Positions 8,501 through 64,000 of a DNA stretch of 64,000 bases are shown in pieces. Source of the DNA: Bacteroidota bacterium (GTDB lineage: Bacteria; Bacteroidota; Bacteroidia; 2-12-FULL-35-15). Position 1 is the stretch's first letter; every line of letters begins with the position of its first letter. Under the pieces are notes generated by a model. The model was given only the letters and a program-made list of their open reading frames with translations. It was not told where the DNA came from and ran no database searches. Where the stretch lies: contig JANYDQ010000236.1 in assembly GCA_025363555.1 (NCBI GenBank), forward strand, positions 3,741 to 67,740, read 5' to 3'. A program made the position numbers and the translations under genes.

Positions 8501-9045
8501 CTTCTTATGTAAAGGACCAAAACACGTTAAATATATTAAAAGAGAGCCAAAATAGAATTAAGTCAATGGCATTTATTCACGAAAGTTTATACCAAACAAA
8601 AGACTTTTCAAACATTAATTTTTCGGAATATGTTATCAATTTATCTCAAAATTTAATTCAAACGTATTCTAATTCTTATAGCGAAGTAAAATTGATTCTC
8701 GATATTCAAACAATTTTTCTTAATTTAGACCTTGCAATTCCAACGGGTTTAATCATAAATGAAATTGTTTCGAATGCAATTAAGTATGCATTTCCGGGAA
8801 AGGAAGATGATGAAAACACTATTACCATTAAGATGAACATAGAAGAAGAGAACTTAAAATTAATAATAGCAGACAACGGAATAGGGTTACCTGGCCATAT
8901 TGATTTTAGAAATACTGAATCATTAGGACTTCAATTGGTAATTACTTTAGTTAACCAGTTAAACGGTAACATACAAGTGGATAATAAAAACGGAACGAAA
9001 TACACAATAATTTTTAAAAATAATCAAACCAAAAATCGAATCTAA
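5587..9045 (+). CDS. multi-PAS sensor histidine kinase (HisKA_2-type phosphoacceptor plus HATPase)
   Basis: 1152 aa; several PAS/PAC-like blocks; EVHHRVKNNLQVISSIL H-box; NAIKYAF and DNGIGLP ATPase motifs. Confidence 0.85.
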   Translation: MPTSKKATTKKPAEVKKLRSKSDVLKKTRTEQKSKSPLPAKEPKWDSFLKYSDHIILLLDKKGNIIDSNEYLKGDKNENILGTSAYRFFSKVSEKKIRNAIENVFKKGKPQKFELMSWGDDNGMAYYSASASPHFENKEITAVIIHAIDTTEKKETKDALKLSEEKYRKLSDAAFEGIAIHQNGKVVEINKAVHKICGFEEDEIIGHSIFDFIHPDFHSTVIEKIKNEDSNPYEIKMFRKGNKEFWAEILGTQIIYNSFPARVSAIRDITFQKESENKIHESERKFSVLSNNFPGIAYRCNLDHNLTMQFLSNGFFKLTGYNSADFVNNKKRAFNDIIHPDDRGNKKLKKALQNKEIYELEYRIITADNKIKWVWEKGQGVFDTKGNLMFLEGFIADINDKKQYEIELNNSRENYKSLIDNSPDGIFILVEGIIEFANKSALEILEAKTEEVQFKSVFNFIPIEFHNFERNRIARIQDGEQVPFTEIKMITVKGNIVDIESKPTLFTYNNLNATLVVLHNISTQKQLLKQQLLTQIAEETNKKLEHQIAERKNAERILQSNQNYTRLLIESSLDMICATDKSGNITEFNTAAQKIFGYELEEVMGKSVQMLYANPTDRTHIKENELVGKGIYIGEVVNIKKNGEKFISFLSASILQNEEGVIIGAMGVSRDISESKKSEQELRASEERYRAIYNQAYIGIAKVSLKGQFLQVNEQLCIIMGYSNSELCQKEFADTTVPEDVKLSIDFRDKLVSGEVDKTTFEKRYFHKSGKIVHANLTISLVKDEAGNPSHFISVFQDISERKKIEREQQTQAAKLKAVFESGSHLVWTADKDSCLTSFNRNFKIFIKQQYGVEIHIGTSMMKDSMISTEEYNSFWIKKYDVTLSGIPQYFETNFVDAAGNNFWYEFFLNPIFDENNKVVEISGIGHDITEKIKANEKIHQSLQEKEVLLKEVHHRVKNNLQVISSILNLQSSYVKDQNTLNILKESQNRIKSMAFIHESLYQTKDFSNINFSEYVINLSQNLIQTYSNSYSEVKLILDIQTIFLNLDLAIPTGLIINEIVSNAIKYAFPGKEDDENTITIKMNIEEENLKLIIADNGIGLPGHIDFRNTESLGLQLVITLVNQLNGNIQVDNKNGTKYTIIFKNNQTKNRI

Positions 9046-42907: not shown

Positions 42908-44602
42908 TTACGTTTTTACTACTTTAATTGTTTTGACGCCTGCTTTTCCGATTAACTGTATGAGATAAAGACCTTTTGGGAAGTCGTTTTTGTTGGTGGT
43001 GATAGTGATGGTGTGTGTTCCGATGGTGTTGACAGTGGTGGTGGAAAGGATTGCGGGTACTGGTTGTCCCATGCTATTGAGGATATTGATGGTGAATTTT
43101 TCGTTTGTCTGTAAGTTGATGGTGAGTGTGAGGTTGTCTGTAAAAGGGTTTGGAAAGGTGGTAATGGAGGAGTTGAAAAAGTTTTGGGTGATGCCTACAT
43201 TTGGAGTTCCATCGGAAAAAAGGTGATGTGCATAGATGTCGGAAATATTAGACGGGTAGCGGTAATCCTGCCAGGCATAGATGGCACCGCCATTTCCGTC
43301 AGAAACGCTTTTGGGACTGGTTTGATGTCCGGTGGCTGTGGATATATCTACACCATTAACAGCCCAAAGCGGGATACCATTAGTATTAATGTGTTGAGAT
43401 TTTATATTCCAGTCAACAAAGCTGGAATCTTGCCAGGTAATGATAGCACCACCTGCAAGGTCGTCTCCAAGGTTAGGATTGAGTTGGTCGTTAATGGAAT
43501 TGCAGATGGGGATGCCATTTGTGGTCCATTGTGGTACACCCGAAGGGTCTAACTTTTGGGCATATATATCGGAGTTTACTGAACGAAGGTCTTTCCATGC
43601 TACAATAACACCATTTATTAACCCGGTACTCATAATATCTTGTGCGCTTTGGGTGCCGGAGGCGGTGCAAACGGGAACACCGTTGTTAGCCCATAAAATA
43701 GTGCCGGTTGAATCTATACGTTGGGCATAGAGGTCGAAATCAATACCGTTGCGAAAGTCTGCCCACACAAGGTAAATACCTCCTGAAGCGGAGTCTTTGT
43801 CTATTTTAGGGCTATCCTGGTTTCCGGGCGCGTTACAAATTTCAATACCATTGCTACCCCATAAAAGTGCACCGGAAGGACTTATTCGCTGGGCATAAAT
43901 ATTATAATCGGTACCGTTGCGAAAATCCTGCCAGGCGAGATATGCACCACCTTTGCCATCTTTTTTTATTTTTGGATTTATTCGATTTGCGTTAAGGGTG
44001 CATATTGGAATGCCTCCGTTTGCCCACATAGTAACCCCAGCATGATTGATGCGTTGCGCCCATGCGTCCCATTGCCCGGTTGCGCTTTGCTGTTCCCAAA
44101 CCAGGATAGCACCACCCACTCCATCTGTTATTATTTTTTCGTCATGCTCTCTTTCCGGTTTATTGGTAACCACTACACCATCCACTGTCCATTGAACGAC
44201 ACCTGAAGAATCAATACGTTGTGCATATATATCGCGTTCGATGCCGCTTCGCCAATCGGAAAAGGCTACAATAGCCCCACCTGCCATATCTCCTACAATG
44301 GAAGGAGTGCTTTGATCGGCAGGGTTGGTGCATATTGAAACTCCGGCAGTATCCCATAAACGGTTTCCGGTAGCATCTAAGTATTGAATGTAAATATCGG
44401 GCAAGCCTGCTCTGTAATCTCTCCAGGTAACAAAGCTGCCACCTTTACCATCTGAACTCATTCGAAAAGCTATTTGATTTCCGCTGTTTCTGATAACAGG
44501 GGTGTTTATGGAGGTGTTGTAATTCCATTGCGCAAGGGTTATTTGGGCAGAGAAAAGTGTTACTATTAATAAAATGAAAACGGGAGTAGAGTTTTTGTTC
44601 AT
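42908..44602 (-). CDS. T9SS type-A cargo, ~57-aa repeat (propeller-like) protein
   Basis: 564 aa; signal peptide; about nine repeats with DIYAQRI...G...W..NG(V/I)..C; C-terminal TTFPNPFTDNLTLT...GLYLIQL...IKVVKT sorting domain. Confidence 0.8.
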   Translation of the reverse strand: MNKNSTPVFILLIVTLFSAQITLAQWNYNTSINTPVIRNSGNQIAFRMSSDGKGGSFVTWRDYRAGLPDIYIQYLDATGNRLWDTAGVSICTNPADQSTPSIVGDMAGGAIVAFSDWRSGIERDIYAQRIDSSGVVQWTVDGVVVTNKPEREHDEKIITDGVGGAILVWEQQSATGQWDAWAQRINHAGVTMWANGGIPICTLNANRINPKIKKDGKGGAYLAWQDFRNGTDYNIYAQRISPSGALLWGSNGIEICNAPGNQDSPKIDKDSASGGIYLVWADFRNGIDFDLYAQRIDSTGTILWANNGVPVCTASGTQSAQDIMSTGLINGVIVAWKDLRSVNSDIYAQKLDPSGVPQWTTNGIPICNSINDQLNPNLGDDLAGGAIITWQDSSFVDWNIKSQHINTNGIPLWAVNGVDISTATGHQTSPKSVSDGNGGAIYAWQDYRYPSNISDIYAHHLFSDGTPNVGITQNFFNSSITTFPNPFTDNLTLTINLQTNEKFTINILNSMGQPVPAILSTTTVNTIGTHTITITTNKNDFPKGLYLIQLIGKAGVKTIKVVKT

Positions 44603-51096: not shown

Positions 51097-54000
51097 ATGA
51101 AAAAACTTTTACTACTACTAATCGTATTAACCACTTTATCAATTAAAACATTTGCACAAGCTTCACCCGAAGGAATAAATTACCAGGCTGTAGCCAGAAA
51201 TATTTCAGGCAACGCAATGTCCTTAACTCCCCTTACTGTTCGTTTTTCTGTGCACGATTTAACAGTTGGTGGAGCTATTGTTTACCAGGAAACGCATGGA
51301 ACCACCACAAATGTATATGGATTATTTACACTTGTTATTGGAAATGGTACTGTTATTACAGGTTCTTTTCCAACCATAAATTGGGGAGTTGGAAATAAAT
51401 TCCTGGAAGTTGAGGTGAATGATGGAGGCGGATATATCTCTATGGGAACAACTCAAATGATGAGTGTTCCTTATGCATTGTATGCAAAAACGGCAGGTGC
51501 CGTTGCAGGTGGAGTTAATGGACCAACTGGTGCTACCGGAGCAACCGGAATAGTTGGTATTACCGGAGCAACCGGGAATAATGGAACGAACGGAACTAAC
51601 GGAATTGCAGGAGTTACTGGTGCAACGGGTACTAATGGAACAAACGGAATAGCAGGAGCTACTGGTGCAACAGGTTCTAATGGTACAAACGGAACTAATG
51701 GTGTAGCAGGAAATACGGGTGTAACCGGAGCAACAGGTACAAATGGTATCAACGGAACAAATGGAACAGCAGGTGCTACTGGAGCCACAGGGATTGATGG
51801 TAGTACCGGAGCAACTGGTACCAACGGAACTAACGGAATTGCAGGAGCAACAGGAGTTACTGGTGCCACAGGTTCTATCGGAGCAACGGGAATAGGTGGA
51901 GCAACGGGTTCTGATGGAGCAACTGGTTCAATTGGTGCAACAGGGATAGCAGGAGCAACGGGTTCTGTTGGAGCAACGGGTTCAATAGGGGCAACAGGAA
52001 TAGATGGAGCAACCGGTTCTGTTGGAGCAACAGGTTCAATAGGTGCAACAGGGGTAGCAGGAACAACGGGTTCTGTTGGAGCTACTGGTTCAATAGGGGC
52101 AACTGGAATAGATGGTGCAACGGGTTCTGTTGGAGCAACAGGTTCAATAGGAGCTACTGGAATAGATGGCGCAACTGGTTCAATTGGCCCTACAGGTGCA
52201 ATAGGGGCAACTGGAATAGATGGTGCAACAGGGATAGCAGGAGCAACAGGTTCTGTTGGAGCAACTGGTTCAATAGGTGCAACAGGAGTAGCAGGTGCTA
52301 CAGGTTCTGTTGGTGCAACTGGTTCAACAGGTGTTGCAGGAGCAACGGGTTCTGTTGGAGCTACTGGTTCAATAGGTGCAACAGGAGTAGCGGGAGCAAC
52401 TGGTTCTGTTGGAGCTACTGGTTCTGTTGGTGCAACAGGAGTAGCAGGAGCAACGGGTTCAACAGGTGCAACAGGAGTAGCGGGAGCTACAGGTTCTGTT
52501 GGAGCAACTGGTTCAATAGGTGCAACAGGGGTAGCGGGAGCTACAGGTTCTGTTGGAGCAACTGGTTCAATTGGTGCAACTGGAGTGGCAGGCGCAACAG
52601 GAGTAGCCGGTGCTACAGGTTCTGTTGGAGCTACTGGTTCAATAGGAGCAACAGGGGTAGCTGGTGCAACAGGTTCTGTTGGAGCTACAGGTTCTGTTGG
52701 AGCAACTGGTTCAATTGGTGCAACAGGGATAGCAGGTGCTACTGGTTCAATAGGTGCAACAGGTGTTGCAGGATCAACGGGTTCTGTTGGGTCAACAGGA
52801 ACTACTGGGGTAACTGGTGCAACCGGCACCAACGGAACCAACGGAACCAACGGAACCAATGGTATAGCAGGAACTACGGGAGTAACTGGTGCAACAGGAG
52901 CAACTGGTGCAACTGGCGTAGGTCTATTAGGGTTAACTGGAGTTACTGGGGCAACCGGAGCAACCGGAACAAATGGAACTAATGGTTCTACAGGAGCAAC
53001 AGGTGCTGCTAATATCAATGGTACTATAAACAATGTTATTAAGTTTACTGCGGCAACAACAGGAGGTAATTCTCAAATTTTCGATAACGGAACAAATGTG
53101 GGTATTGGAGTACCTGCATATACCCCATCAAGTTTGCTTGAATTAAATCAAAATAATAACACCTCTACCGATGGTACATTACTTTCTATCACCAATACAA
53201 ACGGAGCAGATAATACAATTTCAGGAATTAGATTCAAATCTTCCACAGTAACTGGCAATCAAACTTATAAAGGAGGGTTATTTTTCCAAACTACAGCCAC
53301 AGCTGGCAATGGAAGGGGGGATATGATTTTGGCACTAAATACAAGTGGAGGTGCGGGAAATAATGTTAATGCTGCTGATGCAGTAATGATAATTAAAAAT
53401 TCAGGCAATGTTGGTATTGGAACTACTTCGCCAAATATTACCGGAATGACAAAAGCATTAACTGTATCTTCTGCCGAAACTTATATTAATAATGCACCTG
53501 TAGGTTTAGAATTAAAAGGTTCTACTCAAACCGGAAATGCTAAATTAGGACAAATCAGTTTTATTTCTGCTTTTGCATCCACCGAAAATGCAAGAATTGA
53601 AACAAGGACAAGTAATTCTGATGTAAGGGATGGTCAGTTAGCGTTTTATACAAGAAATACCTCTGTTGGTAATATTTTTGAAAGAATGACAATTGATGAA
53701 AACGGTAAAGTAGGTATTGGTACTTCTGCCCCTTCTGCTACTCTTCACGTTGTTGGAGGTGCACGGATTACCGGATTAGGTGGCTCTGGAATTGTTTCTG
53801 CTGATGCGCTTGGTAATTTAAGTGCTGGTGCAATTTCTGGTACCTTAAGCGGAGGCACTACCAACTATGTTCCAAAATGGTCTTCTGCTACTGCCTTATC
53901 TTCCACTTCTAATATTTATGATAATGGAACAGGTGTGGGCATTGGTACTACTGCTCCTACCACTACTCTTTCGGTGGGTAATGGTGCAACAGAAAAATTT

Positions 54001-55386
54001 CAGGTTGACGGTGCCACAGGCGATGTCAACTTCCTCGATCCACAGGGTTCTGTTACTTTCCCTGAACTTCCGGCAGGTTCAGGAGTTGCTGCTCCTATGA
54101 TTCAAATGTTTGCAAACGGGACTAATAACCTTGACAGAATGGTCATTGCACACAGTGCGGCTTTTCCAACGTATGGTTTGCAATACCAGGATGCATCTGA
54201 TAAATTTAATTTCCTTAGTAACGGCAATAATGTGATGACAGTAGATTTATCAGGTTCTAAGGTAGGGATTGGTATTTCAACTCCCGCCTCCTTATTGCAT
54301 GTTAACGGTGCTGCCCAATTGGGTTTGGCAGCTAACACCACAGGGCAGTTAATATTCAGCAACTCTCAAACAGCTAATTCTGTTACTATTCTTTCGGGGT
54401 TTACTAATGCTGCATCAGGAGGTCCTTACACCATTACATTACCTGTTTCCAATCCTACAGTTGCTAATTCGGCTTTAATAAGCACAACTTCAGGAGCTAA
54501 TGCTACCTTGGCTTGGGCTGCTCCGGGCGCTGCAGGTGCAGGACTGCCAGCAGGTACAAAATGGAAAACAATGGTATTCGACTCTGCAACCTCTTTATGG
54601 CAAGCCTCCAGTAATATTTATAATACAGGAACAAATGTGGGAATAGGTATTACATCGGGTATTACTTCAAAATTAGATGTTGCCAATAATCTTGTAACCT
54701 GGTCGCAAGGTGCAACCACTTATTCTAATGCCATCCAGGGAACAACAACTGGTTCTGCTTTTTCAAACAGAGGAACCATGGGGGTAAGTTTTGCAACCGG
54801 GACAAATGGTATCGGGATTTATGGAGCTTCTAACGGTTCAGCTACCAATAATATGGGTGTTTACGGTGATGCGCAATTTGGAACAAATAATTATGCAGGG
54901 TATTTTGACCATGGAAATGTGCTAATTAAAAATAATTTGCAGGTAAATGGAATGGTGCGATTGGGTTCTGAATCAGGTACTGCTCAACCTCCTACATATT
55001 CTTCCGCCCCTTCTTCCACCGGTCTAGTTGTCAGAAGAGTATATTCTACTGTTCAAACTGCGGGATCTGTTGTTGCTTTAACTGACCAAATAAGTCTTGA
55101 ACGCGATGGTACTTCTGGTGGCTGGAGAATAAACAGGACAGGTGCCGGTACAAATATGGTTTGCAATGTTATAGCACTCAATTCATCGGGTACAAGTGTT
55201 AATATATCTAACAGTGCACTTGCAGCAGGCATAACTACTCTATATACCAATGCTCAAAATATAGTTTTCATCCACATTATGTTTGGCGACCCTTACAATG
55301 GAGGAAATACAACAGAGGTTACCCTTACGCGTAATTCAACCGATTATTTCTGGATGGGAACTATGACTTCTACTTTTAATCAATAA
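51097..55386 (+). CDS. collagen-like (Gly-X-Y) surface protein with tail-fibre-like C-terminal region
   Basis: 1429 aa; signal peptide ...KTFAQ; about 490 aa of G-X-Y; C-terminal half has five or more (N/K)VGIG(T/I) motifs; no T9SS sorting domain seen. Confidence 0.85.
51520..53010 (+). repeat. coding tandem repeat (GATGS[VI][10 protein letters not shown][VI][AD] units)
   Basis: Near-identical 27/54-nt units; one register break (GVGLLG); generates a spurious 520-aa antisense ORF. Confidence 0.9.
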
Positions 55387-55425: not shown

Positions 55426-55534
55426 ATGAACAAAATCACAAAAACTATTTCAATTTATGAAAGGTATGTACTTTGTAAGATTAATAGATATAGATAATAA
55501 CGTGCTTCATACTGAAAGGTTAATAAAACAATAG
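55426..55534 (+). pseudogene. orphan 3-prime fragment of a T9SS type-A sorting domain
   Basis: Reads ...KTISIYE then, after a 1-nt shift at GAAAGG, KGMYFVRLIDIDNNVLHTERLIKQ*. There is no upstream body. Confidence 0.5.
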
Positions 55535-55641
55535 AGCATTATTAACAACTCGAAGAACAAAAGAATTTAATTGATATGATGATTAAAAAGTAAAAGATTG
55601 CTTTGTTTACAAAGGAACGAATGATACATACAAAGGAGCAT

Positions 55642-55893
55642 ACAACATGTTTGTTGTAAAGCACAAGATGTTTGTTGTATCATACAACATGTTTGTTGTA
55701 TCACACAACATGTTTGTTGTATCACACAACATGTTTGTTGTATCACACAACATGTTTGTTGCATAGCACAACATGTTTGTTGCATAGCACAACATGTTTG
55801 TTGTATCACACAACATGTTTGTTGCATTACACAACATGTTTGTTGTATCACACAACATGTTTGTTGTATAGCACAACATGTTTGTTGTAACAT
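55642..55893. repeat. 12 x 21-bp perfect-phase tandem array
   Basis: ACAACATGTTTGTTG core plus 6-nt variable linker; no spacers; ends 43 nt before the ATG at 55937. Confidence 0.95.
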
Positions 55894-55936
55894 ACAAGAA
55901 TGATGAATAAGTGGTGTATAATACTTAAAAAAACGA

Positions 55937-56689
55937 ATGATTATTAAAAAACACATACTAATTACCTTAATAATAGCTTTGAGTTCAGGCATTTACGCCC
56001 AAATTCAAAATAATCCTCCCATGAGGCAGGTTTTGGGTACCACAGGCGGAACACATACCTCCGCCACCATGAGTTTGGATTATACCGTGGGCGAACCGAT
56101 GGTGGAAACGTTTACTCCCGGAAGTCCGTTTTTGGTTAAAACCATTACCCAGGGATTTCAGCAGCCTTATAATAATGCGTTAAACATTCATGTCATTCAT
56201 ACCAACTCCACCTGCATCGGTGCCAACAATGGTTCTGCATCCATTGCAGTGCTCACCAGCACCGGCACAGTTCATTATTACTGGTTTTCGCCTTTGGCAG
56301 ATAGCAGCAGCACGGTTTCTAACCTGGTGCAGGGGGTGTATCATTATTGGGTGTTTGACGGAACTTTTACCATTACCGATTCGTTGGTAATTAACGAAGA
56401 TGCAGTTCCCTGCCAGTCTCCCCTGGTGTTTTACACCGGCATAACGCCAAACGGAGACGGCAATAACGACACCTGGTGGATTACCCATATTGAGGAATAT
56501 CCTGAAAATACGGTTTCCATTTTCAACCGTTGGGGAAGTTTGGTGTGGAAAAAATCGGGGTATGACAATTCGAGCACAATTTGGGACGGGACCAATAATA
56601 ATGGTGTTTCATTGCCCGATGCCACTTATTTTTATGTAGTGGAAATTCCCAGTGGCACCTGGAAAGGCTGGGTTCAGTTAACGCATTAG
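55937..56689 (+). CDS. T9SS type-B (CHU_C) cargo protein
   Basis: 250 aa; signal peptide; C-terminal YTGITPNGDGNNDTWWI...FNRWGSLVW...YFYVVEI...GWVQLTH. Confidence 0.8.
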   Translation: MIIKKHILITLIIALSSGIYAQIQNNPPMRQVLGTTGGTHTSATMSLDYTVGEPMVETFTPGSPFLVKTITQGFQQPYNNALNIHVIHTNSTCIGANNGSASIAVLTSTGTVHYYWFSPLADSSSTVSNLVQGVYHYWVFDGTFTITDSLVINEDAVPCQSPLVFYTGITPNGDGNNDTWWITHIEEYPENTVSIFNRWGSLVWKKSGYDNSSTIWDGTNNNGVSLPDATYFYVVEIPSGTWKGWVQLTH

Positions 56690-56769: not shown

Positions 56770-56885
56770 CTCCCTCCCCTTTCTTCAAGGGGAGGGGTTG
56801 GGGGTGAGGTCTTCAAAGATAGAACTAATAATACAAGTATTCACACCGGCTCCCCTCTCCTTTTGGAGAGAAGTCGGGGTTAAAA
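56770..56885 (+). repeat. two tandem GC-rich hairpin REP-like elements
   Basis: CTCCCCTT-tcttc-AAGGGGAG + GGGTTGGGGGTGAGGTC; then CTCTCC-tttt-GGAGAG + AAGTCGGGGTTAAAAC. Confidence 0.55.
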
Positions 56886-56893
56886 CACAACCG

Positions 56894-57838
56894 ATGAAAA
56901 AATTAATTATTCTTTTTACCATCATCATCTCCCTCCTTTATGGAAAGGGCTGGGGTGGGATGTTGTTTGCGCAGCAAGACCCGCAATACAGCCAGTACAT
57001 GTTTAACCAAATGGCTATTAACCCTGCCTATGCCGGAAGCAAGGAAGCCATTTGCGCTGCAACTTTTCTTCGCACCCAATGGACCGGAATAGAAGGCGCG
57101 CCCAAAACGGAAACCATTACCGTTCACGGTCCGTTTGCAAAACGAAAAGTAGGTTTGGGCGGTGCCATTATTGCCGACCAGGTAGGACCCACCAAAAGCA
57201 TTGGCGTTATGGGTTCATACGCCTACCGCATAAAAATTAAAAACGGTAAATTATCTTTTGGCTTGCGTGCCGGTATTTATAACTATACCTATAACTGGGA
57301 TGCCATAACCTATAAAGACCAGGCAGACGTGTATAACACCCACACACAAACTTCGAAAATAGTGCCTACGGCAGATGCCGGCATTTATTATTATACCCGG
57401 TCAGAATACATTGGGTTAAGTGCCACTCATCTTTACAATGGAAGATTAACCACCGTTTCCAATTTTAGCGGAGACGATGTTCGCTTTTCGCGCCACTATT
57501 TTTTAACTGCGGGAAAAGCCTGGGCGTTTGGCGACAATTTTGTTTTTAACCCATCCGTTTGTGTAAAAGGTGCTAAAGGTTCGCCCTTTAATCTGGATGT
57601 AAATTTGAGTTTTTATTTGGATAAAAAATTATGGATTGGAGTTTCCGGTCGTTCCAATAAGGATTTCGTAATCTATGCCCAGGTTAATCTTACCGAAAAA
57701 TTAAAATTAGGATATGCTTTCGATTCCGGGTTTGGTCAAATTGCAAAACTGGGAAGAGGAACTCACGAACTGATGTTGAGTTACGACTTTAATGTGTTTA
57801 AATCAAAAATGCTTTCACCTCGACATTTATATTTTTAA
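56894..57838 (+). CDS. T9SS membrane protein PorP/SprF family
   Basis: Start moved to MKKLIILF at 56894 (the listed N-terminus is translated REP element); AQQDPQYSQYMFNQMAINPAYAGS signature. Confidence 0.85.
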   Translation: MKKLIILFTIIISLLYGKGWGGMLFAQQDPQYSQYMFNQMAINPAYAGSKEAICAATFLRTQWTGIEGAPKTETITVHGPFAKRKVGLGGAIIADQVGPTKSIGVMGSYAYRIKIKNGKLSFGLRAGIYNYTYNWDAITYKDQADVYNTHTQTSKIVPTADAGIYYYTRSEYIGLSATHLYNGRLTTVSNFSGDDVRFSRHYFLTAGKAWAFGDNFVFNPSVCVKGAKGSPFNLDVNLSFYLDKKLWIGVSGRSNKDFVIYAQVNLTEKLKLGYAFDSGFGQIAKLGRGTHELMLSYDFNVFKSKMLSPRHLYF

Positions 57839-57869
57839 TATCAACAAAAAACGATTGCGTACAATTGAT

Positions 57870-60617
57870 ATGAAAAAAATAAAATCAGCTGGTTTATTAT
57901 TCTTAATTATTATTTCTACTACGGCTTTTGCTCAACTAAAACGTGCCAATAAATTTTACGACCATTATGATTATGCCCGGGCAATAGAGCTTTATAAAAA
58001 ACTATTGAACAAAGAGGAAGATGCTGAAGCGTTAGAAAAAATTGCCAACTGCTATCGTTTAACCAGAAATTATGCTAAAGCTGAACAGTTTTATTCCCGC
58101 CTCATTACTATTCCCGGTATCAATCCTGTTAATCATTTTTATTATGGCGAAGTACTGAAAAATCAAAACAAACCGGACGAAGCCAAGCAGCAGTTTAATT
58201 TGTATTTGAATACCGTGCCCAACGACAGGGAAGTGCAGGAGTCGGTAAAATCGTGCGACAATGTTAAAATCTGGGTAAAAAAAACACAGCAATTCGACAT
58301 TACACCCGTTGCTGGTTTAAATACCTCTCATTCCGAATTCAGTCCATCTATTGTAAAAGATAAATTAATTTTTACATCCGACCGCACACAAGACCTGGTA
58401 AATAACTTTAACTATTCATGGAACAAGCAACCGTTTCTGAACGAATACTATGTCACCATTCTTGGTAAAAAAGACAGTAATTTGGTTTTGTCAAAAACTC
58501 CTAAATTAATGCCATGGCCCGTAAATACTGCTTTTCACGATGGACCCATGTGTTTTGATGAAAAAACAAATACCATGTATATTACCCGCGTAGATTATGA
58601 AGTAAAAAAAAGAAATCTAAAATTTATTAATCGTCCCAAATTGTTTTCTGCCACCATGGTGGGAAATAACTGGGAAGACATGAAGCCCTTTAAATATAAC
58701 AGCGATGATTATTCTGTTGCTCACCCCAGTGTTTCTTCTGATGGTCAGTGGTTATTTTTCGCTTCCGATATGCCGGGCGGAAAAGGCGGATTTGATATTT
58801 ACAGATGCCACAAAGAAACGGATGGCTGGGGAATTCCCGAAAACCTGGGCGATGAGGTAAACAGTGCGAACGAAGAATTGTTTCCATTTATTCGCAAAGA
58901 TGGCACATTGTACTTTGCCTCCGACCGCCATACCGGTTTTGGCGGATTAGATGTTTTTTCTGCAACCATGGTAAATAATAAATATAGCGGGGTTTCTAAT
59001 CTTGGCGCTCCGCTCAATTCCTCTACCGATGATTTCGGAATTATTTTTACAGACGATTTTACAAGGGGTTATTTTTCGTCCGACAGGGCTTCGGGCAAAG
59101 GTGCAGACGATATATATAGTTTTATAGCGCTCAATAAATACATCCAAATTGAAGGGAAATTATTATTGAGCCAAAATATAAATGACCCGTTGAAAAATAT
59201 GCAGATTAAATTATTAACCGAAGATGGAAAATTAATTAATTCAACTGTCACCGATAGCATCGGGCATTTTAAATTCGAAAACCTGAATCCCGATATTAAA
59301 TATTTAGTACAACTGGACGAAACCAACCCTCAACTGGTGGACAAAGACAAAGTGTATATGGCAAACACGAATGATAAAATTGTCAGAGTAATAGTGATAA
59401 ACGACAGAGGAGGGAAATTTATTTTCAACGATTTGCCTCTTGACCCCAATGAAATGGAATTGATACCCGTAGCTAATGATGCCACTTTTGCTGGTAATTT
59501 ACTATACGGAACTGACCCTTCCAAACCATTAGCAAATCAGAAAGTTAATTTAGTAAACGATAAAGGGGAAATAATAGCCACTACTACTACTAATAGTAAA
59601 GGAGCTTTTGTGTTCCGTAATTTACCTGCTGACCAGAATTTTCTTGTAAAGGTGGATGAATCAAATCCTAAACTGGAAGCAAATACCAAAATAACAATTA
59701 CCAATAAAAAAGGGGAAGAAATGCAAACTACCAATGCGGGAGACAAAGGGCAGTTTAAATTCACGTTTTTATCTTCAGACAAAGTTACTATGAAAGAAAT
59801 GTCGGTGGAAGACAGTGAACTTAAATTTGATTTTAAAGGAAGATTAGCCAATGAATACAAATCTCCGCTAATAAATTCGGTGGTTAATTTGGTAAACGAA
59901 AAAGGAGAGATTTTGAAAACCACCCGCACCGATGCAAAAGGCGGTTTTCAGTTTGTTAACCTGCCAAGCGACAAAAGTATGTTATTTGCTCTTGAAGAAG
60001 AAAATGACAGCAAAATACAATCAAGTAACAAATTATTTTTAACGGATTCTAATGGTAAAATTATAAAAGAATTTACTCGGAATAAAAACGGCAAATTCGA
60101 TTTCACACTTTTGCCCAGCGACCTGAAAAAATTAGGAGAATTATATGTAGATGATACGCAGCTTTCGTTTACTCATAAAAAAACAACTCCAAAAGCAGGA
60201 ATAAAAACGGAACCAAAAACGGAACCCAAAACAAATGAGACAATAGCAACCATCGAAAATCTGTATTACGATTTTGACGAGTATTTAATATTACCCCAAT
60301 CCATTAAAACACTTTATAAGATAACAGATATTATGCAAAAAAATCCTGACTATTTTATTGAGTTCTCTTCCTATTCTGATGCCCGGGGCACTGCCGATTA
60401 CAATTTGAAATTATCCATGCGCAGAGCAAAATCGGCAAAGGACTTTTTAATTGTGGAAGGAATTGATGCTAAAAGAATTTCAGCAAAAGGCTATGGTGAA
60501 ACTAATTTAGTGAATAGTTGCGGGGATAATAAGGAATGTTCGGAAGAACAACACCAGGAAAACAGGCGAACGGAGGTAAAAATATTTAAAAAACAGGAAG
60601 TATTAAGCAGGAAGTAA
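57870..60617 (+). CDS. OmpA-family peptidoglycan-associated protein with TPR, propeller-like and CarboxypepD_reg-like repeats
   Basis: Start at MKKIKSAGLLFL (57870); C-terminal OmpA block NLKLSMRRAKSAKDFL...NRRTEVKI; usual partner of PorP/SprF operons. Confidence 0.8.
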   Translation: MKKIKSAGLLFLIIISTTAFAQLKRANKFYDHYDYARAIELYKKLLNKEEDAEALEKIANCYRLTRNYAKAEQFYSRLITIPGINPVNHFYYGEVLKNQNKPDEAKQQFNLYLNTVPNDREVQESVKSCDNVKIWVKKTQQFDITPVAGLNTSHSEFSPSIVKDKLIFTSDRTQDLVNNFNYSWNKQPFLNEYYVTILGKKDSNLVLSKTPKLMPWPVNTAFHDGPMCFDEKTNTMYITRVDYEVKKRNLKFINRPKLFSATMVGNNWEDMKPFKYNSDDYSVAHPSVSSDGQWLFFASDMPGGKGGFDIYRCHKETDGWGIPENLGDEVNSANEELFPFIRKDGTLYFASDRHTGFGGLDVFSATMVNNKYSGVSNLGAPLNSSTDDFGIIFTDDFTRGYFSSDRASGKGADDIYSFIALNKYIQIEGKLLLSQNINDPLKNMQIKLLTEDGKLINSTVTDSIGHFKFENLNPDIKYLVQLDETNPQLVDKDKVYMANTNDKIVRVIVINDRGGKFIFNDLPLDPNEMELIPVANDATFAGNLLYGTDPSKPLANQKVNLVNDKGEIIATTTTNSKGAFVFRNLPADQNFLVKVDESNPKLEANTKITITNKKGEEMQTTNAGDKGQFKFTFLSSDKVTMKEMSVEDSELKFDFKGRLANEYKSPLINSVVNLVNEKGEILKTTRTDAKGGFQFVNLPSDKSMLFALEEENDSKIQSSNKLFLTDSNGKIIKEFTRNKNGKFDFTLLPSDLKKLGELYVDDTQLSFTHKKTTPKAGIKTEPKTEPKTNETIATIENLYYDFDEYLILPQSIKTLYKITDIMQKNPDYFIEFSSYSDARGTADYNLKLSMRRAKSAKDFLIVEGIDAKRISAKGYGETNLVNSCGDNKECSEEQHQENRRTEVKIFKKQEVLSRK

Positions 60618-61205: not shown

Positions 61206-64000
61206 CTATTTCACCAACATTACGCTTCCCTGCTCTTTCGCTATTTCACCATTACAGAAGGTAACTTCCAGTTTATACACAAATTCATTATTGTTCATGG
61301 GCAGACCATGCAATGTCCCATCCCAGCCTTCAAGCAAATCCGATGTTTCAAAAACTTTTTCACCCACACGGTCAAATATTTTCAGGTTGATGAAATCAAT
61401 ACCTCTGCCCTGCACAAGAAGAATATCATTATTTCCATCACCATTTGGAGAAAATCCTGTCGGCATAAAATAAGTATAACGAGCAGTAACGTTTACCACT
61501 GTAGTATCCGTATTAACGCAACCGTTCACATCCTGGTAGGTAACATAATATTGTTGACTTAGGTTAGGAGAAACAGTGGCTGTTTGGCACGTGCCACAAG
61601 CAAGGTGAATGTTTGGTCCCCACAAATAAGAAAGTCCTGTAGGTTGAGCCGTCAGGTCCGTACTTTCACAGGCATTGATACTCGTATTTCCCGTAATGGT
61701 AACAGGTATAGGTGTTACAATATGTATGTAACCGGTTCTTATCATCGTATCCGTCCCTCCCGAATTGCTCACAATTAATGTTACAGTATAGTTTCCCGGG
61801 GCGGAATAACACACATTAATAGGTCCGCTGGTGATGGCAGTAGCAGGTGTCCCCCCCGGAAATGACCAACTCCAGGTCGTTGGTGGTCCTATACTCAAAT
61901 TAGTAAAGTTAACACAACCGCTGTTGCAAAGCAATGTGTCATTTGCCACAAAGTTGGCAGTTGGCGGGGTACAACTGTTTACGGTAACTGTGGCAACAGC
62001 CGTATTCGAACAACCGTTTGTGGTTCCAGTTACCGTGTAAGTAATAGTTCCTAAAGTGCCAGGTGTGGCCGTGGCAGTGCTCACTCCAGTTGAAGTGGCT
62101 CCTGCACTCCAATTATAGGTAGTTCCACCTGTTGCCGTTAAAGTAGCAGCAGTTCCTAAACAAATAGATGGCGAATTAACTGTTACTACCGGAATCGGGT
62201 TGGCAGTAATAGTTACCTGAGAAGTGGTTGGCGCACATGGCGAACTGGTAATGGTCCATTGAAAAACATTCGCTCCGGTTCCCAATCCCGTGAGCCCCGA
62301 TGTGGGTGAGGTGGATGCGGTAATGGTTCCCGCTCCGCTTATTAATGTCCAAAGTCCTGAACCTATACTTGCGGTATTCCCGGCAAGTGTGGCAGTCGTT
62401 CCGCAAATAGTTTGGTTAAGTCCTGCTGCCGCTATGGTTGGTGCCGGGTTAACTGTTATCGTTACCTGCGAAGAGGAAGACGGGCAGGGAGCGTTCGATA
62501 TGGTCCATTGAAACACATTGGCTCCTGCCCCCAGGGCAGTAACCGTTGATGTCGGAGATGTCGGAGTAGTAATGGTTCCCGCTCCTGAAATTAATGTCCA
62601 TAACCCTGTGCCGGCAATAGCTGTATTTCCTGACAAAGTAGCCGAAGGGGTACAGATAGATTGATTTGCCCCCGCAACCGATACTGTTGGTGTAAGGGAT
62701 GATGTTATTGTTACCTGTGATGTAGAGGCAGGACAAGGCAGATTATCTATTTCCCATTGAAACACATTGGCTCCTGCACCCATCCCGGTAATGGTTGTGG
62801 TTGGAGAAGTTGGGGTTGTAATGGTTCCTGTTCCACTTATTAATGTCCAAAGTCCTGTTCCCACCACAGAAGTATTTGCTGCCATTGTTGCATTTGCTCC
62901 GCAAACGGTTTGGTTAGGTCCGGCTGCTGCTGTGGTTGGTCCTCCTGTATTGGTAATGGTTACCTGCGAGGAGGAAGAAGCACAAGGAGCATTGGAAATT
63001 GTCCATTGAAAAACATTAGCTCCTGCTCCTAAACCTGTAACTATTGATGTTTCTGATGTAGGTGTAGTTATTGTTCCTGTTCCGCTTACCAATGTCCATA
63101 AACCTGTTCCAAAGGTTGCAACGTTTCCGGCAAAGGTTGCCGATGTGGAACAAATGATTTGGTTCGCTCCCGCTGCCGCTAAGGTTGGAGTAGCTACTGA
63201 TGTTATAGTAACCTGCGATGTACTTGCCGGGCAGGGAAGATTATCTATTTCCCATTGAAACACATTGGCTCCTGCACCCATCCCGGTAATGGTTGTGGTT
63301 GGAAAAGTTGGAGTGGTGATTATTCCTGTTCCGCTTATTAACGTCCAAAGTCCTGTTCCTACAACAGGAGTATTTCCAGCCATTGTTGCATTCGCTCCGC
63401 AAACCATTTGGTTAGGCCCTGCAACTGCTGTGGTTGGTCCCCCTGTGTTGGTAATGGTTACCTGAGATGAAGAAGAAGGACAAGGCGCATTGGAAATTGT
63501 CCATTGAAAAACATTAGCTCCAACTCCTAAGCCTGTTAAGCCTGATGTTTCTGATGCAGTTGTGGTTATTGTTCCTGTTCCGCTTACCAATATCCATAAA
63601 CCTGTTCCAACGAGTGCCGTATTTCCTGCTAAGGTTGCTGTGGCTGAACAAATGGTCTGGTTAGGTCCTGCCGTGGCTAATGTTGGAGTAGCCACTGATG
63701 TGATGGTTACCTGTGATGTGCTTGGAGCGCAAGGGAGATTATCTATTTCCCATTGAAATACATTTGTTCCCAAGCCTAAGCCTGTTATTCCTGTTGTTGG
63801 AGATGTTGGTGTTGTAATTGTTCCGGTTCCACTAATTAAGGTCCAAAGTCCTGTTCCCACCATAGGAGTATTTGCTGCCATAGTTGCATTCGCTCCGCAA
63901 ACCGTTTGGTTAGGTCCTGCAACTGCTGTGGTTGGCCCTCCTGTGTTGGTAATTGTTACCTGGGATGAGGAGGAAGGACAAGGAGCATTGGAAATTGTCC
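61206..64000 (-). CDS. giant modular T9SS type-B (CHU_C) adhesin, 5-prime end beyond the window
   Basis: The frame stays open to position 64000. About 83-aa modules alternate (..VFQWEIDNLPC.. / ..VFQWTISNAPC..). PKD-like region; C-terminal FSPNGDGNNDILLV...GSVMLVK. Confidence 0.85.
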   Translation of the reverse strand, partial: TISNAPCPSSSSQVTITNTGGPTTAVAGPNQTVCGANATMAANTPMVGTGLWTLISGTGTITTPTSPTTGITGLGLGTNVFQWEIDNLPCAPSTSQVTITSVATPTLATAGPNQTICSATATLAGNTALVGTGLWILVSGTGTITTTASETSGLTGLGVGANVFQWTISNAPCPSSSSQVTITNTGGPTTAVAGPNQMVCGANATMAGNTPVVGTGLWTLISGTGIITTPTFPTTTITGMGAGANVFQWEIDNLPCPASTSQVTITSVATPTLAAAGANQIICSTSATFAGNVATFGTGLWTLVSGTGTITTPTSETSIVTGLGAGANVFQWTISNAPCASSSSQVTITNTGGPTTAAAGPNQTVCGANATMAANTSVVGTGLWTLISGTGTITTPTSPTTTITGMGAGANVFQWEIDNLPCPASTSQVTITSSLTPTVSVAGANQSICTPSATLSGNTAIAGTGLWTLISGAGTITTPTSPTSTVTALGAGANVFQWTISNAPCPSSSSQVTITVNPAPTIAAAGLNQTICGTTATLAGNTASIGSGLWTLISGAGTITASTSPTSGLTGLGTGANVFQWTITSSPCAPTTSQVTITANPIPVVTVNSPSICLGTAATLTATGGTTYNWSAGATSTGVSTATATPGTLGTITYTVTGTTNGCSNTAVATVTVNSCTPPTANFVANDTLLCNSGCVNFTNLSIGPPTTWSWSFPGGTPATAITSGPINVCYSAPGNYTVTLIVSNSGGTDTMIRTGYIHIVTPIPVTITGNTSINACESTDLTAQPTGLSYLWGPNIHLACGTCQTATVSPNLSQQYYVTYQDVNGCVNTDTTVVNVTARYTYFMPTGFSPNGDGNNDILLVQGRGIDFINLKIFDRVGEKVFETSDLLEGWDGTLHGLPMNNNEFVYKLEVTFCNGEIAKEQGSVMLVK

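What the first reader, a model, noticed from the sequence alone, without database searches (positions are those of the whole stretch)
51097..55386. 1429-aa proline-free collagen-like protein with a tail-fibre-like C-terminal half and no recognisable T9SS tag
Seen: after a signal peptide and a roughly 120-aa head come about 490 residues of Gly-X-Y. These are built almost only from Ala/Thr/Ser/Val/Ile/Asn/Asp ([18 protein letters not shown]...), with no Pro and one register break (GVGLLG). The nucleotide units are near-identical 27/54-mers, so the tract should be recombination-prone and length-variable. The C-terminal 790 aa carry five or more copies of (N/K)VGIG(T/I)-x-x-P-x-x-x-L-(H/S/D)V. From memory I associate this motif with phage tail-fibre-like and Bacteroidota surface-fibre proteins. 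Unlike its neighbours it has no type-A or type-B sorting domain. A detached type-A domain fragment lies 40 nt downstream.
Basis: partly seen in the sequence, partly recalled or inferred. Interest (0 to 1): 0.6.

Follow-up and report, generated by a model that had tools for sequence, protein, structure and literature searches.

The report
Collagen-stalked phage-like surface fibre
This gene encodes a long, probably three-stranded cell-surface fibre of the 'mosaic adhesive trimer' (MAT) class known from Bdellovibrio, here in an uncultured Bacteroidota bacterium with an almost proline-free collagen stalk, an undescribed end domain and a conserved link to a type IX secretion anchor operon.

Summary
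The 1429-aa ORF is real and largely as described. It has a Sec signal peptide and a 118-aa head. A 500-residue Gly-X-Y tract follows, with 2 Pro and one register break. Then comes a tail-fibre-like half with six xVGIG capping motifs. There is no T9SS sorting domain. The DNA repeats are not near-identical: the longest exact repeat is 44 nt.

The head matches NCBIfam Bdello_MAT_N (E 2.7e-12). The repeat motif is the published MAT capping loop, and it matches solved Bdellovibrio fibres. So this is a non-S74 MAT-type fibre, not a new kind.

The last ~147 residues have no Pfam or NCBIfam model. They form a family of 340 clusters that is always at the extreme C-terminus, in Bacteroidota and Verrucomicrobiota. 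The fold resembles phage fibre tips only weakly. The gene is therefore complete, and the type-A fragment downstream is an unrelated relic.

Fibre, small 'QG' type-B T9SS substrate, PorP/SprF and a PorE-like OmpA protein form an operon conserved in eight or more lineages. Tips, heads and collagen length vary between them. In 46 of 80 loci found through the QG motif alone, a head-bearing fibre gene lies nearby. I infer that the fibre is mounted by this T9SS module. Read-level length polymorphism and expression could not be tested.

The parts
51097..51156 (+). Sec (SPI-type) signal peptide, residues 1-20 (…KTFA|QA). No lipobox Cys.
   Evidence: Read from the translation. Homologues carry the same head directly after a comparable leader.
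51157..51510 (+). N-terminal 'head' or base domain, residues 21-138. An Ig-like beta-sandwich homologous to the MAT N-terminal domain.
   Evidence: NCBIfam NF053851 Bdello_MAT_N scores E 2.7e-12 (46.8 bits, below the subfamily cut-off of 60). My own HMM finds it in 71 of 151 family proteins, in many phyla, and in a Bdellovibrio sp. ORF (E 8e-9). AF2 gives pLDDT 89.5 with 7 strands. PDB shows only generic Ig-like matches, E >= 5e-3.
51511..53010 (+). Collagen-like Gly-X-Y stalk, residues 139-638. It has 166 triplets, one G-X-G break at residues 607-612, 0.6% Pro, 31% Thr and 1.9% charged residues in X/Y. As a triple helix it would be about 143 nm long.
   Evidence: Pro-free, Thr-rich tracts are shared by orthologous loci L092, L096, L098 and L100.
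53011..54939 (+). Tail-fibre/MAT-like beta-helix region, residues 639-1281, with six capping-loop motifs (xVGIG-x-x-P-x-x-x-L-x-V).
   Evidence: phmmer matches PDB 8OND (Bd2133, E 1.7e-7), 8OJN (E 1.3e-5) and 8OML (E 1.5e-3). PHROG tail-fibre families score 5e-7. 328 homologues were found, many carrying PF13884 or PF26696 PTL_trimer.
54940..55386 (+). Conserved C-terminal domain of about 147 aa (residues 1282-1429, plus the stop codon), ending …GTMTSTFNQ. Probably the distal knob or trimer-registering end.
   Evidence: 340 clusters at 50% identity match it (281 at E <= 1e-10), and the match always reaches the protein's end. No Pfam or NCBIfam model covers it. AF2 gives pLDDT 84.5, with a core near 95 and 10 strands. 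No PDB fold match (best E 0.06). BFVD phage collagen-like and tail-fibre proteins match at E about 1e-4, TM about 0.5. No tblastn hit in 50,697 phage genomes.
55427..55535 (+). Decayed tail of a T9SS type-A sorting domain (…KTISIYE / 1-nt shift / FMKGMYFVRLIDIDNNVLHTERLIKQ*). A relic, not part of the fibre gene.
55642..55897 (.). Array of 12.2 copies of a 21-nt dyad-symmetric unit between the fibre gene and the QG/type-B gene.
   Evidence: TRF gives 90% matches. A 21-nt periodic array occupies the same place in orthologous locus L092.
55937..56689 (+). 250-aa secreted protein: N-terminal 'QG' domain (…TITQGFQQPY), one SprB repeat and a type-B T9SS sorting domain. Candidate surface mount for the fibre.
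   Evidence: PF13585 CHU_C scores 2.4e-25 and TIGR04131 scores 3.9e-16. Orthologues lie directly downstream of fibre genes in L090 and L092-L100. QG-fibre adjacency was seen in 46 of 80 loci.
56798..57838 (+). PorP/SprF-family shuttle or anchor for the type-B substrate.
   Evidence: PF11751 scores 3e-70. It is 42-79% identical in syntenic loci.
57792..60617 (+). PorE-like protein (TPR, PD40 beta-propeller, CarboxypepD_reg domains, OmpA). A peptidoglycan-binding anchor.
   Evidence: Pfam. The operon type matches the Fjoh_3952/3951/3950 operon described in PMC12618676.

Best explanation
The ORF encodes a Sec-exported, most likely homotrimeric cell-surface fibre of the MAT (mosaic adhesive trimer) / phage-tail-fibre-like class. 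It belongs to the non-S74 subclass.

Order of parts from the cell outwards:
- an Ig-like N-terminal base domain (MAT_N);
- a stalk of about 500 residues, almost proline-free and threonine-rich, collagen-like (about 140 nm if it is a triple helix);
- an intertwined beta-helix of about 640 residues, punctuated by six capping loops;
- a 147-residue beta-sandwich end domain.

The end domain belongs to a large, so far unmodelled family. I read it as the distal, ligand-binding and/or trimer-registering knob.

The fibre has no T9SS tag of its own. It is the first gene of a conserved operon. The other genes encode a small QG-domain type-B T9SS substrate, its PorP/SprF shuttle and a PorE-like peptidoglycan anchor.

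I infer that this T9SS-delivered, wall-anchored complex holds the fibre on the surface through its N-terminal base domain, and possibly helps it across the outer membrane. The tip would then mediate adhesion to a surface or to another cell.

Shown: domain homologies, family distribution, synteny and QG-fibre gene linkage.
Inferred: trimer state, collagen triple helix, surface location, base-QG docking and adhesive function.
For: - Head: NF053851 Bdello_MAT_N scores E 2.7e-12. My head HMM hits a Bdellovibrio sp. ORF at residues 29-164 (E 8e-9) and fibre ORFs of many phyla.
- Capping motif: phmmer hits solved MAT fibres 8OND and 8OJN. The motif is defined in PMC10769870.
- No S74 domain and no T9SS CTD.
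- C-terminal domain: 340 clusters, and 149 of 151 members end at the last residue. The AF2 model is confident and resembles tips of phage collagen-like and tail-fibre proteins.
- Synteny: L090 carries HAMP-PP2C, two head fibres, a QG/SprB/CHU_C gene (12 nt after the fibre), PorP/SprF and TPR-OmpA. These are 36-54% identical to the window's genes. L092-L100 are arranged likewise.
- Reciprocal test: loci fetched with the QG motif alone hold a same-strand head-domain ORF in 46 of 80 cases. 34 of 48 QG-head pairs lie within 300 nt.
- Small Por_Secre_tail genes sit directly upstream of the closest collagen-type relatives.
- Type-B substrate / SprF-like / PorE-like operons are proposed to form static wall-anchored surface complexes (PMC12618676).
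Against: - There is no expression or localisation evidence. No RNA run holds the gene.
- The score to Bdello_MAT_N is below that model's curated cut-off.
- A triple helix with 0.6% Pro and 1.9% charged residues would be unusually poorly stabilised by the known rules. This rests on my own knowledge and was not tested.
- Base-QG docking rests on gene linkage only.
- The same fibre family occurs in phyla that, to my knowledge, lack a T9SS (Verrucomicrobiota, Bdellovibrionota). Export therefore cannot depend on T9SS in general.
- Some orthologous loci carry fibres with a different N-terminal domain next to the same QG gene.
- In this window the fibre and the QG gene are 550 nt apart, not abutting.
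- The tract length is unverified, because short-read contigs break there.
Confidence: 0.75

Rival explanations
1. The 147-aa C-terminal domain is not an adhesive tip. It would be a sorting, export or anchoring signal (a third kind of C-terminal secretion domain), or a non-cleaving folding nucleus that plays the role of the S74 chaperone.
For: The domain is strictly C-terminal in 149 of 151 proteins, with a conserved free end [ST][FY][ND]Q. The passengers vary widely: collagen, YadA-like repeats, FG-GAP and LVIVD repeats, in proteins of 135-2218 aa. In the closest relative's orthologous locus, an S74 chaperone occupies the same position.
Against: Orthologous loci exchange it for several unrelated ends, as expected of swappable tips. 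Its nearest fold matches are ends of phage fibre proteins. It also occurs in Verrucomicrobiota, so it cannot be a T9SS-specific tag. At 147 aa and 10 strands it is larger than known T9SS CTDs. The registering-nucleus role is compatible with the main explanation.
Confidence: 0.2
2. The Gly-X-Y tract does not form a collagen triple helix. It would be a flexible Gly-rich spacer or another glycine-based fold (polyglycine-II type).
For: Imino acids are almost absent (0.6% Pro) and charged residues are very few. No structural evidence is available.
Against: 157 triplets run in perfect register, and the one break is a typical G-X-G interruption. The tract is flanked by domains that trimerise in solved relatives (PMC10769870). 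Pro-free, Thr-rich tracts are conserved in register in four orthologous lineages, up to 1017 residues long. The peptide repeat is conserved while the DNA has diverged at synonymous sites.
Confidence: 0.15
3. The gene is a leftover phage tail-fibre gene (cryptic prophage or recent transfer) with no cellular role.
For: PHROG tail-fibre and collagen-like minor-tail families match. The tip fold resembles phage proteins.
Against: It has a Sec signal peptide. There are no phage genes within 10 kb on either side. The chromosomal operon is syntenic in eight or more lineages. Head and tip have no tblastn match in 50,697 phage genomes.
Confidence: 0.03

Closest known systems
Mosaic adhesive trimer (MAT) fibres of Bdellovibrio bacteriovorus, non-S74 subgroup (Bd2133, Bd1334, Bd2734, Bd2740; Caulton et al. 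2024, PMC10769870; PDB 8OND, 8OJN, 8OML)
   Same: A signal peptide followed at once by a conserved beta-rich N-terminal domain. A long beta-helical stalk with the V-G-G/N-pi-x-x-P-x-x-x-L capping loops. A variable, swappable C-terminal tip. A chromosomal, non-phage gene.
   Different: - The phylum is Bacteroidota.
- A 500-residue collagen-like stalk lies between base and beta-helix. Collagen is not mentioned in that paper.
- The tip is a different, unmodelled domain.
- The gene is linked to a T9SS type-B substrate / PorP / PorE-like operon.
- The organism is not known to be a predator.
Phage tail fibres and tailspikes with a Peptidase_S74 intramolecular chaperone (T5 pb1, K1F endosialidase), and collagen-like phage tail fibres
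   Same: The beta-helix repeat with capping loops, collagen-like segments (PHROG 1806, 6320 and others) and a C-terminal knob of similar predicted fold.
   Different: There is no S74 domain here, although the orthologue in L092 has one. The protein has a Sec signal peptide and a cellular base domain. There is no phage context.
BclA / Scl-type bacterial collagen-like surface proteins
   Same: A tripartite layout of N-terminal domain, Gly-X-Y stalk and C-terminal globular end. Threonine-rich triplets, as in BclA.
   Different: Almost no proline. No LPXTG anchor. NCBIfam Scl and Lcl models score far below their cut-offs. The end domain gave no TNF/C1q-like match in the PDB. A 640-residue beta-helix is inserted.
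Type-B T9SS substrate / SprF-like shuttle / PorE-like operons of Flavobacterium johnsoniae (Fjoh_3952-3950; PMC12618676) and PG1035-PorP-PorE of Porphyromonas gingivalis
   Same: The three downstream genes have this composition and order.
   Different: Here the type-B substrate is only 250 aa, carries a QG domain and is preceded by one or more CTD-less fibre genes.

Membership tests
MAT (mosaic adhesive trimer) fibre family | A conserved beta-rich N-terminal domain of about 130 aa immediately after the signal peptide | tested here: met
   NF053851 Bdello_MAT_N scores E 2.7e-12 (46.8 bits, below the Bdellovibrio-subfamily cut-off of 60). My own HMM matches a Bdellovibrio sp. HCB-162 ORF at residues 29-164, E 8e-9.
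MAT (mosaic adhesive trimer) fibre family | A beta-helical stalk with repeated capping-loop motif V-G-G/N-pi-x-x-P-x-x-x-L | tested here: met
   Six motifs. phmmer alignments place them on the capping loops of 8OND, 8OJN and 8OML.
MAT (mosaic adhesive trimer) fibre family | Homotrimeric, intertwined fibre | not testable with these tools
   Only single-chain AF2 prediction was available.
MAT (mosaic adhesive trimer) fibre family | The C-terminus is either an S74 chaperone-protease (SDxxxK) or a variable non-S74 tip | tested here: met
   There is no PF13884 match. The end is a different conserved domain, so this is the non-S74 class. Tips differ in orthologous loci.
MAT (mosaic adhesive trimer) fibre family | Display on the cell surface | not testable with these tools
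   No proteomic or RNA data.
Bacterial collagen-like proteins (PF01391; Scl/Lcl/BclA type) | A long uninterrupted Gly-X-Y tract | tested here: met
   166 triplets with one break. PF01391 scores E 4e-67.
Bacterial collagen-like proteins (PF01391; Scl/Lcl/BclA type) | Triple helix stabilised by proline and/or charged pairs | tested here: not met
   0.6% Pro and 1.9% D/E/K/R in X/Y positions. Whether a helix forms anyway was not testable.
Bacterial collagen-like proteins (PF01391; Scl/Lcl/BclA type) | Equivalog-level match to Scl1, Scl2 or Lcl, with an LPXTG anchor | tested here: not met
   Scores are 163-204 bits against cut-offs of 325-500. There is no LPXTG motif.
T9SS cargo protein | A C-terminal type-A (TIGR04183/PF18962) or type-B (TIGR04131/PF13585) sorting domain | tested here: not met
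   Neither is found in the whole protein or in its last 152 aa. The neighbours at 42908-44602 and 55937-56689 score clearly.
Peptidase_S74 tail-fibre proteins | A C-terminal intramolecular chaperone-protease domain | tested here: not met
   There is no PF13884 match. Many homologues, and the L092 orthologue, have one.

The most novel reading that the evidence does not exclude
In Bacteroidota, MAT-type fibres that carry no sorting tag form a two-part display system with small QG-domain T9SS substrates.

The QG protein would bind the fibre's N-terminal base domain. It carries a type-A or type-B CTD; here it is type-B, with its own PorP/SprF shuttle and PorE-like wall anchor. It would either carry the folded trimer through the T9SS translocon or dock it on the surface afterwards.

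In addition, the stalk would be a true collagen triple helix with essentially no proline, kept stable by threonine (possibly glycosylated) and by the trimeric end domains.
Probability: 0.3. Interest if true: 0.75.

Novelty: new variant of a known kind. Interest (0 to 1): 0.5.

Why it matters
MAT fibres were described only in 2024, in a bacterial predator, and how they reach and hold on to the cell surface is still unknown. This locus and its relatives show three things.

- The same base domain and beta-helix are used widely in non-predatory Bacteroidota.
- They are combined with very long collagen-like stalks that break the usual sequence rules for collagen stability.
- They are consistently encoded beside small T9SS substrates. 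That gives a concrete, testable candidate for the missing mounting or export factor.

The 147-residue end domain is a large family (340 clusters at 50% identity, in at least two phyla) with no model in the Pfam-A and NCBIfam copies searched here. None of this is established function. The gene itself is one member of a broad and recurrent class.

Tried and rejected
The window holds only this one copy of head and tip.
- Repeat-length polymorphism in reads: four DNA metagenome runs hold the flanks exactly, but Logan contigs break inside the tract. The result is uninformative.
- RNA runs: none.
- The search for related loci with the broad C-terminal alignment failed because no stretch was conserved enough. 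With the single protein it found nothing. A narrow alignment found only 5 loci.
- The C-terminal domain as a C1q/TNF-like (BclA-type) head: Foldseek found no PDB match.
- The head domain against the PDB gave only generic Ig-like sandwiches. This agrees with the statement in PMC10769870 that it has no structural homologue.
- The fragment downstream as the lost sorting tail of this protein: rejected, because the family always ends at ...NQ.
- Bacteroidota O-glycosylation motif D-[ST]-[ALIVMT]: 1 site against 3.9 +/- 1.9 expected, so no enrichment.
- The antisense 520-aa ORF at 51471-53033 is a mirror image of the Gly-X-Y repeat (PVAPVEP…), not a gene.
- A literature search for 'PTL_trimer' (PF26696) found nothing.
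Full report
**Observation**

The ORF at 51097-55386 (+) is open and encodes 1429 aa. It starts with a typical Sec signal peptide (…KTFA|QA) with no lipobox cysteine.

Residues 139-638 are Gly-X-Y: 157 triplets, then a G-V-G-L-L-G register break, then 9 more triplets. X is mostly Ala/Ser/Val/Thr/Ile. Y is mostly Thr (86 of 166), then Ala/Asn/Val/Ile. There are 2 prolines and 6 aspartates. Pfam Collagen scores E 4e-67.

- The 54-nt period shows 75% matches.
- In-register 54-mers average 57% identity.
- The longest exact repeat is 44 nt.
- So the peptide repeat is conserved while synonymous sites have drifted.

Six xVGIG-x-x-P-x-x-x-L motifs lie at residues 667-1180. Neither Pfam nor NCBIfam finds a T9SS sorting domain, although both find them clearly in the neighbouring genes.

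Forty nucleotides downstream lies a 109-nt relic of a type-A sorting tail. Joined across a 1-nt shift, it scores TIGR04183 E 0.0024.

**What the parts are**

*The repeat motif.* phmmer against PDB sequences hits the crystallised C-terminal parts of Bdellovibrio bacteriovorus fibre proteins: 8OND (Bd2133, E 1.7e-7), 8OJN (E 1.3e-5) and 8OML. The alignments centre on …ERM(R/T)ID..G.VG(I/L)GT.AP...LHV. Caulton et al. 2024 (PMC10769870) define exactly this as the capping loop of an intertwined trimeric beta-helix, with consensus V-G-G/N-pi-x-x-P-x-x-x-L. The loop is shared with S74-type phage tail fibres.

[quoted passage not shown] The window's head (residues 21-138) matches NCBIfam NF053851 'Bdello_MAT_N' at E 2.7e-12. 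At 46.8 bits this is below that subfamily model's cut-off of 60.

An HMM I built from family members finds the domain in three places:
- at the N-terminus of 71 of 151 proteins that share the window's C-terminal domain;
- in fibre ORFs from Acidobacteriota, Gemmatimonadota, Planctomycetota, Nitrospirota, Ignavibacteria, Cloacimonadota, Patescibacteria and others;
- in a Bdellovibrio sp. HCB-162 ORF at residues 29-164, E 8e-9.

AF2 models it confidently as a seven-strand sandwich (pLDDT 89.5). It has only generic Ig-like neighbours in the PDB. There is no S74 domain, so the protein is a non-S74 MAT-type fibre.

**The C-terminal domain**

The last ~147 residues have no Pfam or NCBIfam model.

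A full HMMER scan of 1.84 billion representative proteins found 340 clusters at E <= 0.001, 281 of them at E <= 1e-10. In every listed hit the match reaches the protein's last residue. In my local re-analysis, 149 of 151 proteins end exactly at the domain's end, with terminal consensus [ST][FY][ND]Q.

The carrier proteins are 135-2218 aa long. They combine the domain with collagen tracts, YadA-like repeats, FG-GAP and LVIVD repeats and others. Named members are 'hypothetical proteins' of Verrucomicrobiota and Bacteroidota MAGs.

The consequence is that the window's gene is complete, and the type-A relic downstream is not its lost tail.

AF2, with a 46-sequence alignment, gives a confident ten-strand beta structure (mean pLDDT 84.5, core about 95).
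- There is no PDB fold match (best E 0.06).
- Among predicted viral structures, the best matches are E 1e-4 to 5e-4 with TM about 0.5. They include a collagen-like protein of an Escherichia phage, a tail-fibre protein of an Aeromonas phage, and uncharacterised Tenacibaculum phage proteins.
- At sequence level, neither the tip nor the head occurs in 50,697 phage genomes.

A conserved Cys pair present in most homologues is replaced in the window's copy.

**Context and relatives**

There are no phage genes nearby.
- Upstream lie an anti-sigma/ECF sigma pair, YfiR-like, TPR and HAMP-PP2C genes.
- Downstream lie a 250-aa protein with a type-B sorting domain, then PorP/SprF, then a TPR-PD40-CarboxypepD_reg-OmpA protein.
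- The last three match the 'type-B substrate / SprF-like shuttle / PorE-like' operons of Flavobacterium johnsoniae. Those are proposed to form static, wall-anchored surface complexes (PMC12618676).

*Synteny in L090.* The contig of homologue P0051 (L090) carries HAMP-PP2C, a CHU_C protein, two head-bearing fibres (828 and 971 aa), a 244-aa QG/SprB/CHU_C gene starting 12 nt after the fibre, PorP/SprF and TPR-OmpA. These are 36-54% identical to the window's proteins. Its fibres have different C-terminal ends.

*Synteny in L092-L100.* These loci were found through the 250-aa protein's N-terminus and show the same operon.
- In the closest one, L092 (250-aa protein 72% identical, PorP 79%), the fibre ends in an S74 chaperone. 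A 21-nt array again lies between the fibre and the QG gene.
- Other loci have two or three tandem fibres with another N-terminal type and further tips.
- Their collagen tracts are also proline-free and Thr-rich, and range from 132 aa or more up to 1017 residues.
- Two close homologues, 85-93% identical in the flanks, differ by 150 versus 39 collagen residues (the 39-residue run is).

So tips, heads and stalk length are all swapped or resized at a conserved locus. This is the 'mosaic' behaviour.

**The QG link**

Earlier notes of this scan suggested that CTD-less fibres pair with small T9SS proteins. I treated this as a lead and tested it here.

The 250-aa protein and the 165-aa type-A-tagged protein directly upstream of the collagen fibre in L006 share an N-terminal motif, …TQG(F/V)QQP.

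I then scanned 185,579 species' genomes with only that motif.
- 46 of the 80 hold a head-domain ORF on the same strand.
- 34 of 48 QG-head pairs lie within 300 nt.
- Of 81 QG proteins in these loci, 39 carry a type-A domain, 28 a type-B domain, and 14 neither detectably. The latter are possibly cut short by contig ends or too divergent. They fall into size classes of about 160, 245 and 457 aa.
- Small Por_Secre_tail genes also abut the fibres P0128 and P0018.
- P0004, which lacks the head, has no such neighbour.

This is gene linkage, not proof of binding.

**Mechanism**

The most likely reading is as follows.
- The protein is exported by Sec.
- It trimerises from its C-terminal end, as in phage fibres and MATs.
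- It forms a rod of roughly 190 nm. About 143 nm would be collagen, at the 0.286 nm rise per residue I assumed. The remainder is the beta-helix, scaled from Bd3182.
- It is held at its base by the QG / PorP-like / PorE-like complex, with the 147-aa knob at the far end as the binding element.

The trimer state, the triple helix, the surface location, the docking and the adhesive role are all inferred.

Two points argue for caution. The family also exists in phyla that, to my knowledge, lack a T9SS, so crossing the outer membrane cannot depend on T9SS everywhere. And a collagen with 0.6% Pro and 1.9% charged residues lacks the stabilisers described for bacterial collagens (my own knowledge). Its conservation in register across lineages argues that the tract is structured, but this needs biophysics.

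**Limits**
- Short-read contigs break in the tract, so neither its true length nor polymorphism within a population could be checked.
- No RNA data exist.
- No multimer prediction was available.

**Verdict**

The thing is a Bacteroidota member of the MAT / phage-like fibre class, not a new kind. Three features have not been described in the literature I could search: the near proline-free collagen stalk, the widespread unmodelled C-terminal domain, and the conserved operon with a QG-type T9SS substrate. It is a new variant of a known kind and of moderate interest.

Noticed in passing
window 55642-55897: 12.2 tandem copies of a 21-nt dyad-symmetric unit (ACAACATGTTTGTTGTATCAC, 90% matches) lie between the fibre gene and the QG/type-B gene. 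An array with the same 21-nt period but a different sequence sits at the same place in orthologous locus L092 (about 5610-5830).
   Followed up: partly
window 55427-55535: A decayed type-A T9SS sorting tail with a 1-nt frameshift and no gene body. In relatives, small QG + type-A genes sit next to fibre genes, so this may be the relic of such a partner gene.
   Followed up: partly
loci L092-L171 (QG-motif search): Small secreted proteins with the N-terminal motif …TQG(F/V)QQP fall into three size classes: about 160 aa with a type-A CTD, about 245 aa with a SprB repeat and a type-B CTD, and about 457 aa with a type-A CTD. Most are adjacent to MAT-type fibre genes. In the pairs I looked at, the fibre mostly lies downstream of the ~160-aa class and upstream of the ~245-aa class, with exceptions.
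   Followed up: partly
L093, L094, L095, L098, L100 (fibre ORFs upstream of the QG gene): Fibres in orthologous operons start with a different N-terminal domain (…AQVEIVS(T/S)G.G.AY.LN.P…) that my MAT_N head model does not detect. They end in S74 domains or in other tips (…KVLLK, …ITYTVTNAD).
   Followed up: no
window 51471-53033 (- strand): A 520-aa antisense ORF ([10 protein letters not shown]…) is the reverse-complement reading of the Gly-X-Y repeat. It is an artefact of composition, not a gene.
   Followed up: yes
window residues 1356-1400 of the fibre (about 55160-55300): Most homologues of the C-terminal domain have conserved cysteines (…C.C.G… and …HC.FG…). The window's copy keeps only Cys1356 and has Val/Ile at the other positions, so any disulfide is lost here.
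   Followed up: no
L002/L003/L007 about 7144-8764 and L008 8471-12211: The fibre sharing both head and tip with the window's protein (P0017 type) is followed by a second head-bearing fibre gene in tandem. It is preceded by an ABM-monooxygenase-like 108-aa gene rather than a T9SS partner. The contigs end before more can be seen.
   Followed up: no
window 61206-63998 (- strand): A large repetitive adhesin with alternating modules of about 83 aa and a C-terminus that looks like a type-B sorting domain, running off the window's end.
   Followed up: no
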